A stretch of 64,000 nt of DNA from a virus (Duplodnaviria > Heunggongvirae > Uroviricota > Caudoviricetes), in IMG/VR virus record IMGVR_UViG_3300001199_000001, positions 69,404 to 133,403 of that record; one strand, given 5' to 3'. The notes under the pieces were generated by a model. The model searched no databases. It was not told where the DNA came from and saw only the letters and a list, made by a program, of their open reading frames with translations. Positions 17,018 through 17,206 of the stretch are shown piece by piece. The translations under genes were made by a program, and so were the position numbers. How positions within the stretch are numbered: the first letter of the stretch is position 1; each line of letters begins with the position of its first letter.

Positions 17018-17112
17018 TGGAAGTCCCGCTCGGATTCGAACCGAGATCGCGCCCTAATCTGGGGCATACAGCGTTTATAAAACGCTCGCTCTGACCATTA
17101 AGCTACAGGACC
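17018..17112 (-). tRNA. trnI: tRNA with TAT (Ile, AUA-reading) anticodon and a long variable arm
   Basis: Only minus-strand tRNA found; loop TT-TAT-AA, ~24-nt variable region, G1:U72, U73, CCA; 95 nt. Confidence 0.85.
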
Positions 17113-17138
17113 GTAGACGGCCCCGAAGGTCCGTCGGA

Positions 17139-17171
17139 TCAGCGTATGGTTATGATCGATATGTAAGACAT
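17139..17171 (-). CDS. Leader peptide F, MSYISIITIR
   Basis: ATG TCT TAC ATA TCG ATC ATA ACC ATA CGC TGA: three ATA codons, ending 26 nt upstream of the TAT tRNA. Confidence 0.82.
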   Translation of the reverse strand: MSYISIITIR

Positions 17172-17177
17172 CCGGAC

Positions 17178-17206
17178 TGCATAGCTTAAAAAGCCGCGTC
17201 CGTCAA
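17178..17206 (-). promoter_or_regulatory. Promoter of module F (tRNA-Ile UAU)
   Basis: TTGACG-N17-TATGCA; ATG 6 nt after the -10 box. Confidence 0.75.

What the first reader, a model, noticed from the sequence alone, without database searches (positions are those of the whole stretch)
17018..17206. Module F: independent minus-strand AUA sensor driving a single UAU tRNA
This self-contained unit is on the opposite strand: promoter, MSYISIITIR with three rare ATA codons, a UUCG hairpin (17116-17135), then tRNA(UAU). The match is at codon level, not just amino-acid level. Hosts read AUA with lysidine-modified tRNA-Ile2(CAU), so this would sense loss of tRNA-Ile2 or TilS activity and supply a modification-independent substitute. 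GGACC in the hairpin can alternatively pair with the tRNA 5' end GGTCC. Its inverted orientation suggests the sensor-tRNA cassette moves as a unit.
Basis: partly seen in the sequence, partly recalled or inferred. Interest (0 to 1): 0.9.

Follow-up and report, generated by a model that had tools for sequence, protein, structure and literature searches.

The report
AUA-codon leader before phage tRNA-Ile(UAU)
A giant phiCbK-like phage carries a ten-codon mini-gene with three rare AUA codons directly ahead of the one tRNA that reads AUA, one of five such "codon-listing" leaders in front of its tRNA genes, which suggests the phage measures codon-reading capacity with ribosomes and adjusts tRNA output.

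Summary
On the minus strand there is a TTGACG-N17-TATGCA promoter, and an ATG 6 nt after it. The ORF MSYISIITIR* follows, with ATA at codons 4, 7 and 9. Then come a cUUCGg hairpin and a 95-nt tRNA-Ile(UAU).

ATA is 4.3 per 1000 codons in this phage. Three in-frame ATAs have shuffle P of about 0.0007-0.001.

Four plus-strand units in the window share the same promoter-leaderless-ATG geometry. Their leaders list the codons of the tRNAs downstream, and two are followed by strong terminators. The same design occurs in phiCbK and Colossus-like phages.

Module F differs in having no U-tract terminator. Instead, the 3' arm of the hairpin can pair with the tRNA's own 5' acceptor strand (-12.7 against -9.4 kcal/mol).

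My best reading is a translation-coupled AUA sensor that gates folding or processing of the tRNA. The direction and mechanism are inferred.

The "mobile cassette" idea is not supported. The tRNA belongs to a widespread, almost phage-only long-variable-arm family found without this leader, although three other GC-rich loci have analogous AUA mini-ORFs. Sensing of TilS or tRNA-Ile2 loss is untested.

The parts
17178..17206 (-). Promoter: -35 TTGACG (17206-17201), 17-nt spacer, -10 TATGCA (17183-17178). The predicted transcript start is at or next to the ATG, giving a leaderless mRNA.
   Evidence: Sequence. The same TTGACN-N17-TANNNN-N6/7-ATG geometry occurs at 32 sites in the genome, mostly in front of long ORFs. 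22 of 74 promoter-like sites have an ATG 6-7 nt after the -10. No transcript start was measured.
17139..17171 (-). Leader mini-ORF MSYISIITIR* (10 codons plus TGA). The ATA codons are at 17162-17160, 17153-17151 and 17147-17145.
   Evidence: Shuffle P is 0.0007-0.0013. ATA is 4.3 per 1000 codons in phage genes. Translation is inferred.
17116..17135 (-). Hairpin H1, GACGGACC-UUCG-GGGCCGUC. It starts 3 nt after the stop codon, and no U tract follows it.
   Evidence: dG -9.4 kcal/mol. It is not listed as terminator-like.
17106..17125 (-). Alternative helix H2. The 3' arm of H1 (CGGGGCCG, 17125-17118) pairs with C-1 plus tRNA nucleotides 1-7 (CGGUCCUG, 17113-17106).
   Evidence: dG -12.7 kcal/mol, and it is the minimum-energy fold for most nascent lengths. 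When the ribosome footprint is placed at the stop codon or at the third AUA, H2 forms and 0 of 7 acceptor pairs remain. Duplex P = 0.017.
17018..17112 (-). tRNA-Ile(UAU), 95 nt, with CCA encoded. The anticodon is at 17079-17077. It has G1-U72 and U73.
   Evidence: It is a member of the long-variable-arm family.
17051..17065 (-). Long variable arm of the tRNA: a 4-bp stem (GCCC/GGGC) with the invariant 7-nt loop CAGAUUA.
   Evidence: The stem covaries in 48 diverse family members and the loop is invariant.
17251..17287 (-). Perfect 13-bp hairpin after the DUF6557 gene. It separates that gene from module F and has no U tract on either strand.
   Evidence: (I4).
17293..17823 (-). Upstream minus-strand gene encoding a 176-aa DUF6557 protein. 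It has its own TTGACA promoter at 17914.
   Evidence: Pfam PF20194, E = 3.6e-18. There is no close homologue in 5.8 billion proteins apart from itself. It is absent from the relatives and from other tRNA-Ile(UAU) loci.

Best explanation
Module F is a ribosome-read cis-regulatory leader for the phage's tRNA-Ile(UAU).

1. A host-type promoter starts the transcript at or next to the AUG, so the mRNA is leaderless.
2. A ribosome translates the 10-codon ORF, whose three AUA codons make its progress depend on the cell's AUA-decoding capacity.
3. If AUA is read slowly, the ribosome waits at the first or second AUA. Hairpin H1 forms behind it, the tRNA 5' strand stays free, the cloverleaf folds and the tRNA can be matured.
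4. If AUA is read quickly, the ribosome reaches the UGA 3 nt before H1 and covers H1's 5' arm. This frees H1's 3' arm to pair with tRNA nucleotides -1 to 7 (helix H2). The acceptor stem is held open and productive folding or RNase P processing is reduced.

The tRNA would then be made on demand and would feed back on its own leader.

**Shown:** the anatomy, the codon statistics, the shared promoter/leaderless design, the two competing helices and their energies.

**Inferred:** the transcript start, translation of the ORF, the direction of the switch, and the effect on processing.
For: 1. The unit is present exactly as described, and the three in-frame ATAs are unlikely by chance. Shuffle P is 0.0007-0.0013, and binomial P is 7e-6 against the phage's coding usage.
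2. Its promoter-to-ATG geometry is the phage's standard leaderless gene start.
3. Four other short leaderless ORFs precede the large tRNA blocks and are enriched in the codons of their own downstream tRNAs:
   - A: 16 of 30 codons, with all 8 Watson-Crick codons of its 8 tRNAs present.
   - C: 25 of 33.
   - D: 17 of 32.
   - B: a run of TTA TTG CTA CTT.
   - The off-diagonal counts are low.
4. Leaders A and D are followed by the two strongest terminators in the 14-kb tRNA region. Module A switches between antiterminator and terminator when the ribosome footprint is moved.
5. The design is conserved in phiCbK and in Colossus-like phages, and leader content covaries with tRNA content. A Cys codon appears only where a tRNA-Cys is present, and a Trp codon only where tRNA-Trp lies in that block.
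6. H1 and H2 compete, at -9.4 against -12.7 kcal/mol. With a ribosome at the first or second AUA, or with none, the full transcript folds as H1 plus cloverleaf (7 of 7 acceptor pairs). With a ribosome at the stop codon it folds as H2 (0 of 7).
7. Three other GC-rich loci of the same tRNA family have a mini-ORF with an in-frame ATA directly upstream, together with significant complementarity between leader and tRNA 5' strand:
   - L123 has ATGACA-17-TAGAAA-6-ATG and an 18-codon ORF, P = 0.021.
   - L089 has a Shine-Dalgarno site plus ATG, P = 0.005. L093 has the same arrangement, P = 0.003.
   - AT-rich loci show no such complementarity.
Against: - There is no U-tract terminator, so F lacks the output element that makes modules A and D convincing.
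- There is no homologue of this leader anywhere, so the ORF, the ATAs and the H1/H2 pairing cannot be tested by conservation.
- The overall fold is no more stable than shuffles (z = -0.58).
- The minimum-energy path without a ribosome flips between H1 and H2 as the transcript lengthens. A ribosome at the third AUA already favours H2. The direction of regulation is therefore not determined by the model.
- At equilibrium without a ribosome the tRNA folds, so any OFF state must be kinetic.
- One GC-rich family member with free upstream sequence (L153) has no in-frame ATA.
- Parts of the leaders resemble the tRNA's own 3' part, so the complementarity could be a relic of duplication.
- This copy has U73 where at least 90% of the family has A73. 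Its charging is uncertain.
Confidence: 0.5

Rival explanations
1. It is a plain promoter with a 5' leader. The tRNA is made constitutively from its own promoter. The ATG at +1, the 10-codon frame and the ATAs are incidental features of an AT-richer initial transcribed or processing region. H1 is only a stabilising or processing hairpin.
For: - There is no terminator between the ORF and the tRNA.
- Several other short ORFs follow the same promoter pattern without any tRNA link, for example 17879 MFHYPREVGIF and 152102 MENGNGLLDL.
- Spacers before tRNAs in this family are often AT-rich and contain ATA.
- There is no conservation evidence.
Against: - Three ATAs all in the ATG frame give P of about 0.001, even when the local composition is kept.
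- The cognate-codon logic is the same as in four sister units that do have attenuator anatomy.
- The stop codon sits 3 nt before H1, which is the geometry a switch needs.
Confidence: 0.27
2. It is a relic of a partial tRNA duplication. The leader and H1 are decayed copies of the tRNA's own 3' part (anticodon-loop UAUAA, T arm, acceptor 3' strand) left by recombination when the tRNA was acquired. This would explain both the ATA triplets and the complementarity to the 5' acceptor strand without any function.
For: - Leader ATCCGA-CGGACCTTC aligns with tRNA ATCCGAGCGGGACTTC.
- In L123 the leader contains a T-arm-like copy, P = 0.018.
- The CGAATA shared by L089, L093 and L123 looks like a mutated T loop.
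- The minus-strand block is a lineage-specific acquisition.
Against: - For the window's unit the similarity is not significant (P = 0.23).
- A relic does not explain the ATG placed at the promoter's +1.
- It does not explain an open frame with all ATAs in phase, or the strong Shine-Dalgarno sites before the L089 and L093 ORFs.
- A relic could also be the raw material for a switch, so this rival is not exclusive.
Confidence: 0.1
3. It is classical transcription attenuation or polarity. Ribosome position controls RNA polymerase read-through into the tRNA, either through H2 acting as a weak terminator or pause inside the tRNA, or through Rho loading on untranslated leader RNA. Folding of the tRNA is not the controlled step.
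For: - Sister modules A and D use terminators.
- H2 is an 8-bp GC-rich stem followed by UAGCUUAAU.
Against: - There is no run of U after H1 or H2.
- Only 27 nt separate the stop codon from the tRNA, which leaves little room for Rho loading.
- A terminator inside the tRNA would abort every transcript that forms it.
Confidence: 0.08

Closest known systems
Leader-peptide transcription attenuators of amino-acid operons (trpL, hisL, leuL, thrL, ilvL; pheM of pheST) in enterobacteria
   Same: - A short ORF at the 5' end carries clustered codons cognate to the regulated product.
- Ribosome position chooses between mutually exclusive RNA helices.
- The stop codon is placed just before the second helix element.
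- The multi-amino-acid leaders of modules A, C and D resemble the multivalent ilv leaders (own knowledge of these systems).
   Different: - The regulated genes are tRNAs, not enzymes. The signal is decoding capacity for a codon, not amino-acid supply alone.
- Module F has no intrinsic terminator. The competing helix involves the tRNA's own acceptor strand.
- The mRNA is leaderless.
Leaderless polycysteine short-ORF attenuators of mycobacteria (bioRxiv 10.1101/834739, listed)
   Same: A leaderless transcript begins with AUG, and a very short ORF with repeated cognate codons controls the genes downstream.
   Different: - Those ORFs sense cysteine and control protein-coding operons in a bacterial chromosome.
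- This is a phage unit controlling a tRNA, and the match is to one synonymous codon.
Sister units in this phage (leaders at 11906, 13565, 15855 and 18792) and in phiCbK and Colossus-like phages
   Same: - The promoter-N6/7-ATG geometry is identical.
- The leader is spelled in the codons of the tRNAs downstream.
   Different: - The sister leaders are 28-34 codons long and list many codons.
- A and D are followed by canonical terminators. The A-type, D-type and Glu/Asp leaders are conserved across relatives.
- F has 10 codons, one codon type, no terminator, lies on the opposite strand and is unique to this phage.
tRNA-Ile(UAU) of Mycoplasma mobile (PMC3575796); the UAU tRNA-Ile of lactic acid bacteria is known here only from a reference list
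   Same: It has a UAU anticodon and reads AUA without lysidine or TilS.
   Different: - Those are ordinary short-variable-arm tRNAs that co-evolved with their own IleRS and ribosome.
- The phage tRNA has a 4-bp variable arm with the invariant loop CAGAUUA, and is almost confined to viral sequence.
T-box riboswitches
   Same: They are cis-acting leaders that tie expression of translation components to tRNA status.
   Different: - T-boxes bind uncharged tRNA directly, are not translated, and control aaRS or amino-acid genes.
- No T-box or other Rfam element is found here.

Membership tests
Leader-peptide (ribosome-mediated) transcription attenuator | Short ORF at the 5' end of the transcript | tested here: met
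   A 10-codon ORF starts 6 nt after the -10, which is the phage's usual leaderless start. Translation itself cannot be tested here.
Leader-peptide (ribosome-mediated) transcription attenuator | Clustered control codons cognate to the regulated product | tested here: met
   3 ATA in 9 codons, upstream of the only tRNA with anticodon UAU. P is about 0.001 or less.
Leader-peptide (ribosome-mediated) transcription attenuator | Intrinsic terminator (GC hairpin plus U tract) between the leader and the regulated gene | tested here: not met
   H1 is followed by UACGGUCC, and no terminator-like site is reported there.
Leader-peptide (ribosome-mediated) transcription attenuator | Mutually exclusive helices selected by ribosome position | tested here: inconclusive
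   H1 and H2 compete, and footprint masking switches the fold. This is thermodynamic modelling only. There is no covariation, and z = -0.58 for the whole region.
Leader/tRNA units of phiCbK-like phages (modules A-D and their homologues) | TTGACN-N17-TANNNN-N6/7-ATG promoter with a leaderless short ORF upstream of tRNA genes on the same strand | tested here: met
   TTGACG-17-TATGCA-6-ATG, with the tRNA 27 nt after the ORF.
Leader/tRNA units of phiCbK-like phages (modules A-D and their homologues) | Leader enriched in the codons read by the downstream tRNAs | tested here: met
   F scores 3 of 9 for its own codon and 0 of 122 in the other four leaders. The diagonal dominates the matrix.
Leader/tRNA units of phiCbK-like phages (modules A-D and their homologues) | Conserved in related phages | tested here: not met
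   There is no match to the unit in G001, G002, G003, G004 or G005, and no tRNA-Ile(UAU) in the tRNA regions fetched from G001, G002, G003 and G005.
Long-variable-arm phage tRNA-Ile(UAU) | Cloverleaf with anticodon UAU, plus a variable arm of about 4 bp closed by C-G with loop CAGAUUA | tested here: met
   All 158 instances have anticodon tat. 97% of cells are paired, and the variable-arm stem covaries.
Long-variable-arm phage tRNA-Ile(UAU) | A73 discriminator (near-invariant in the family; not used to define it) | tested here: not met
   The window's copy has U73, while at least 90% of 48 diverse members have A.
   No homologous leader is found at more than 150 other loci. There are no flanking direct repeats. 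The neighbouring DUF6557 gene is not linked to the tRNA elsewhere.
T-box or other curated RNA element | Match to an Rfam model in the leader | tested here: not met
   Only the tRNA model matches in 16000-18000 at E <= 1.

The most novel reading that the evidence does not exclude
phiCbK-like phages run their tRNA arrays under ribosome-read 'codon-demand' leaders, a control principle I could not find described for any tRNA genes. Module F would be its most specific form: a single-synonymous-codon (AUA) sensor whose output is not termination. Instead it captures the tRNA's own acceptor strand with an anti-acceptor helix, so that translation speed gates tRNA folding or maturation. The gated tRNA is itself an undescribed, almost phage-only class of tRNA-Ile(UAU). 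Its invariant variable-arm loop CAGAUUA presents GAU centred as in the anticodon loop of the major tRNA-Ile, and may help charging by host IleRS.
Probability: 0.35. Interest if true: 0.92.

Novelty: new variant of a known kind. Interest (0 to 1): 0.8.

Why it matters
Phage tRNAs are usually discussed as constitutive codon-usage helpers or as replacements for host tRNAs destroyed by defence nucleases. How their expression is controlled is largely unknown.

Here, leader ORFs spelled in the codons of the downstream tRNAs give a direct, testable mechanism by which a phage could sense which codons are slow in the infected cell and supply the matching tRNAs. The same design is present in phiCbK, which grows on the model bacterium Caulobacter crescentus, so the idea can be tested with standard genetics.

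Module F adds two points:
- Discrimination at the level of a single synonymous codon.
- A possible new output, namely control of tRNA folding or processing by an anti-acceptor helix.

The work also brings to light a widespread long-variable-arm tRNA-Ile(UAU) family. This family bears on how AUA can be read without lysidine across many hosts.

Tried and rejected
**Searches for relatives or homologues that found nothing useful**
- Close relatives through the neighbouring 176-aa protein: none in IMG/VR, and only itself in 5.8 billion proteins.
- The exact anticodon-arm pattern in IMG/VR: none.
- blastn of the unit against 50,697 phage records: only other tRNAs matched. The one full-length match was the LpeD tRNA, which led to the variable-arm family.
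- The unit searched in five related phage records: nothing.
- tblastn of DUF6557 against all fetched loci: no link to other tRNA-Ile(UAU) loci.

**Scans and fold tests**
- The generic promoter/terminator scan found nothing for this unit.
- The whole-region fold against shuffles was not significant.
- Flanking repeats that would suggest a mobile element: none.

**Ideas tested or considered**
- Leader as a decayed tRNA copy: not significant for this unit (P = 0.23), significant only for L123.
- A general test for ATA-rich upstream ORFs across the family is uninformative for most members. About half of the distinct IMG/VR loci lie directly behind another tRNA, and most come from AT-rich (0.33-0.45 GC) contigs where ATA is common.
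- An apparent shared 'ITI' peptide motif (L013, L043) and an 'AUA-UCN' codon pair were considered and dropped as unprovable.
- A tRNA-like stretch in the module B leader is not recognised by Rfam.
- The longer 87-aa reading of the frame (17139-17402, TTG start) was rejected. It runs through the DUF6557 gene end and its hairpin.

**Literature**
- Full-text searches found no description of leader-peptide control of tRNA genes.
- Full-text searches found no description of the long-variable-arm tRNA-Ile(UAU).
- The library is incomplete, so this is not proof of novelty.

Full report
**Context.** The window is bases 69,404-133,403 of a 278,859-bp, about 55% GC IMG/VR virus record. Its tail-tube protein is 62-66% identical to those of Caulobacter and Brevundimonas phiCbK-like phages (Dolichocephalovirinae), including a 279,967-bp record the size of CcrColossus. 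The window holds 39 tRNA genes between 7184 and 20658. All are on the plus strand except tRNA-Ile(UAU) at 17018-17112.

**The observation.** On the minus strand the sequence reads as follows:
- TTGACG (17206-17201), 17 nt, TATGCA (17183-17178), 6 nt.
- ATG TCT TAC ATA TCG ATC ATA ACC ATA CGC TGA (17171-17139).
- TCC, then the hairpin GACGGACC-UUCG-GGGCCGUC (17135-17116).
- UAC, then the tRNA.

ATA is the fifth-rarest sense codon of the phage: 4.3 per 1000 codons and 8% of Ile codons, although 108 of 178 long ORFs contain at least one. The three ATA trinucleotides of the leader are all in the ORF frame. Shuffling the leader gives three or more in-frame ATAs in 0.065% of trials, or 0.13% if only the AT-richer ORF body is shuffled. 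Only 32 windows in the whole genome, in any frame on either strand, have three in-frame ATAs within 8 codons.

**Promoter and start codon.** The tool's generic sigma-70 scan misses the promoter, but the phage has a clear signature of its own:
- There are 74 TTGAC[AG]-N17-TANNNN sites against about 17 expected.
- In 22 of them an ATG starts exactly 6 or 7 nt after the -10, where about 3% would be expected.
- Most of these ATGs open long ORFs of 100-640 codons.

The phage therefore seems to start many genes as leaderless mRNAs, and module F has exactly this geometry. The transcript start and the translation of the mini-ORF remain inferences.

**Sister units.** The same scan picks out four short plus-strand ORFs, each in front of a tRNA block.

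| Unit | ORF | Leader peptide | tRNAs downstream |
|---|---|---|---|
| A | 11906-12001 | MITKTTTPMTMKPTKP... | Pro(CGG, UGG, GGG), Met, Thr(GGU, CGU, UGU), Lys(CUU) |
| B | 13565-13651 | run of TTA TTG CTA CTT | five tRNA-Leu |
| C | 15855-15959 | MIKTATHSSAHSSAASAASS... | His, three Ala, four Ser |
| D | 18792-18893 | ...QFVQICNQVRVNR... | Phe, Val, Ile, Gln, Asn, Arg, Cys |

- Leader A contains the Watson-Crick codon of all eight of its tRNAs.
- Own-operon codons make up 16/30 (A), 5/27 (B), 25/33 (C), 17/32 (D) and 3/9 (F) of the leaders. The binomial P values are 5e-6, 0.06, 1e-12, 5e-3 and 7e-6.
- A and D are each followed within about 30 nt by the two strongest terminators of the 14-kb tRNA region.
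- In module A, masking the first 45 nt (a ribosome stalled in the control codons) replaces the terminator with an antiterminator. With no mask, or with 60 nt masked, the terminator returns. This is textbook attenuation.

**Conservation of the design.** Colossus-like relatives and phiCbK itself have the same promoter-leader-terminator-tRNA units.
- In phiCbK, MSKTYRQFVRQIQVVRNIR... sits before an annotated terminator and Phe-Val-Ile-Ile-Val-Gln-Gln.
- The annotated 'hypothetical protein' gp335 is rich in S, L, K, P and A. It sits before a terminator and Pro-Pro-Lys-Lys-Leu-Leu-Leu-Ser-Ser.
- MTHLLTRYEREATGLDTTTA sits before Glu-Asp.
- Leader content tracks tRNA content. A Cys codon occurs only in the window phage, which has tRNA-Cys. 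A Trp codon occurs only where tRNA-Trp lies in that block.
- A further 224-kb contig (L044) has a Leu/Pro-rich leader before Pro and Leu tRNAs.

The phiCbK genome paper does not mention attenuation. My full-text searches found no description of leader-peptide control of tRNA genes.

**What is special about F.** It is short (10 codons), lists one synonymous codon, lies on the opposite strand and has no U-tract terminator.
- H1 has dG -9.4 kcal/mol.
- Its 3' arm can instead pair with C-1 and tRNA nucleotides 1-7 (helix H2, -12.7 kcal/mol). H2 is the minimum-energy fold of most nascent lengths, until the full tRNA allows H1 plus the cloverleaf.
- Placing a ribosome footprint at the first or second AUA, or nowhere, gives H1 plus an intact acceptor stem.
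- Placing it at the stop codon, which is 3 nt before H1, gives H2 and no acceptor stem.

This is the geometry of a classical attenuator, with the 'terminator' replaced by an anti-acceptor helix. It is thermodynamic modelling only:
- The third AUA already favours H2.
- The whole region is no more stable than shuffles.
- Without a ribosome the tRNA wins at equilibrium.

The sign of the regulation and the effect on RNase P are therefore inferred.

**The tRNA.** It is not an ordinary tRNA-Ile. It has a long variable arm (17065-17051): a 4-bp stem and the loop CAGAUUA.
- A pattern built on this arm found 106 IMG/VR contigs. A stricter, GC-biased version of it found 45 metagenome contigs.
- It found only 7 contigs among one genome from each of 185,579 prokaryote species, and all 7 are MAG contigs.
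- It also occurs in Lactobacillus phage LpeD.
- Every ARAGORN-called tRNA carrying the motif (158 in all, 101 distinct sequences) has anticodon UAU; 2 of the 45 metagenome loci gave no call at the match under my strand filter.
- In 48 diverse members, 97% of cloverleaf cells pair, the variable-arm stem covaries (G-C, U-A, C-G, A-U) and the loop is invariant.

The loop carries GAU at its centre, as the anticodon loop of the major tRNA-Ile does (CUGAUAA in the phage's second tRNA-Ile(GAU), CCGAUAA in the first). E. coli IleRS charges a plain UAU tRNA poorly (PMC3575796), so the arm may compensate. This is an idea, not a result. The window's copy has U73 where at least 90% of the family has A73.

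**Does the leader travel with the tRNA?** No.
- About half of the distinct IMG/VR loci (43 of 89) sit within 60 nt of another tRNA, and none has a homologous leader.
- The four complete or near-complete relatives lack the tRNA, the leader and the DUF6557 gene upstream of it.
- No flanking repeats were found.

The 'moves as a unit' inference therefore fails. Analogous arrangements do exist in the few GC-rich lineages where ATA is rare:
- L123 (65% GC, binned as Hyphomicrobiales) has ATGACA-17-TAGAAA-6-ATG and an 18-codon ORF with CGA ATA, ending 9 nt before the tRNA.
- L089 and L093 have strong Shine-Dalgarno sites, an ATG and a 16- to 17-codon ORF with CGA ATA that reads into the tRNA. A 3-nt indel between the two keeps the frame.
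- In these three loci and in F, the 60 nt upstream are unusually complementary to the tRNA 5' strand (P = 0.021, 0.005, 0.003 and 0.017). Nine AT-rich or ORF-less loci are not.
- L153 (57% GC) is a counter-example with no in-frame ATA.

Parts of these leaders resemble the tRNA's own T arm and 3' strand (significant only in L123). A partial duplication may be the evolutionary source of the anti-acceptor, or a function-free explanation for it.

**Verdict.**
- The central interpretation, a codon-level AUA sensor attached to the UAU tRNA, is the best-supported reading. This rests mainly on the statistics and on the four sister units. I put it at about 0.5.
- The specific H1/H2 folding or processing mechanism is less certain.
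- The links to TilS or tRNA-Ile2 loss and to mobility are untested and unsupported respectively.
- Relative to known biology this is a new variant of leader-peptide attenuation: a new class of target, a possibly new output, and single-codon specificity.

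Noticed in passing
window 11870-12066, 13529-13651, 15819-16018, 18756-18954 (+): Four promoter/leaderless-leader units (A-D) whose ORFs list the codons of the tRNAs downstream. A and D are followed by strong terminators, and A folds as a textbook attenuator. This is a larger finding than module F itself.
   Followed up: partly
L175 (phiCbK NC_019405) 6082-6144, 7541-7678, 9342-9440; L119-L122: The same leader-terminator-tRNA design occurs in phiCbK and in Colossus-like phages. 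One phiCbK leader is annotated as hypothetical protein gp335. Leader content covaries with tRNA content.
   Followed up: partly
window 17051-17065 (-); loci L012-L174: A long-variable-arm tRNA-Ile(UAU) family that is almost confined to viral sequence. The loop CAGAUUA is invariant, with GAU centred as in an anticodon loop. All 158 instances have anticodon UAU. I found no description of it in the searchable literature.
   Followed up: partly
window 17021-17022 and 17112 (-): The window's tRNA-Ile(UAU) has U73, where at least 90% of the family has A73, and a G1-U72 wobble, which about half the family shares. It also has an extra C in the D loop. Its charging identity is uncertain.
   Followed up: no
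window 17008-17018 and 17251-17287: tRNA-Ser(GGA) on the plus strand and tRNA-Ile(UAU) on the minus strand converge with 9 nt between their 3' ends and no terminator. The next strong structure is a perfect 13-bp hairpin with no U tract on either strand. Transcripts from module C and module F would be antisense to each other.
   Followed up: no
whole genome (G000): Leaderless gene starts are pervasive. 22 of 74 TTGAC[AG]-N17-TANNNN sites have an ATG 6-7 nt after the -10, mostly opening long ORFs.
   Followed up: yes
window 17879-17844 (-): A second leaderless mini-ORF (MFHYPREVGIF*) follows a TTGACA-17-TATGTC promoter, 20 nt upstream of the DUF6557 gene start. Its role is unknown.
   Followed up: no
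window 11876-11892 and 15825-15841 (+): The 17-nt spacers of promoters A and C both contain the inverted repeat CAGCG...CGCTG. This may be a shared operator.
   Followed up: no
window 13387-13473; L119/L120 tRNA-Lys, Trp, Asn, Arg; L175 8140-8324: Several other tRNAs of phiCbK-like phages are unusually long for their isotype: Lys(CUU) 87-91 nt, Trp 84-86 nt, Asn 89 nt and Arg(ACG) 97 nt. This suggests more long-variable-arm class-I isoacceptors.
   Followed up: no
window ~13725-13810 (+): A tRNA-like stretch (GGGTCCCG...AGTTCGACTCTT...CGGGACCCTCCA) lies between leader B and tRNA-Leu(GAG). Neither ARAGORN nor Rfam recognises it.
   Followed up: partly
L021, L030, L091, L111, L141, L145, L148, L158: Some contigs carry both the long-arm tRNA-Ile(UAU) and an ordinary 72-74-nt tRNA with anticodon UAU.
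   Followed up: no
L044 5877-6140: A 224-kb viral contig has TTGACA-17-TATAAA, followed about 70 nt downstream by a Leu/Pro-rich ORF (...SLPSLPLPATLSGLRLPPLR) and a terminator-like hairpin. These sit before Pro and Leu tRNAs.
   Followed up: no
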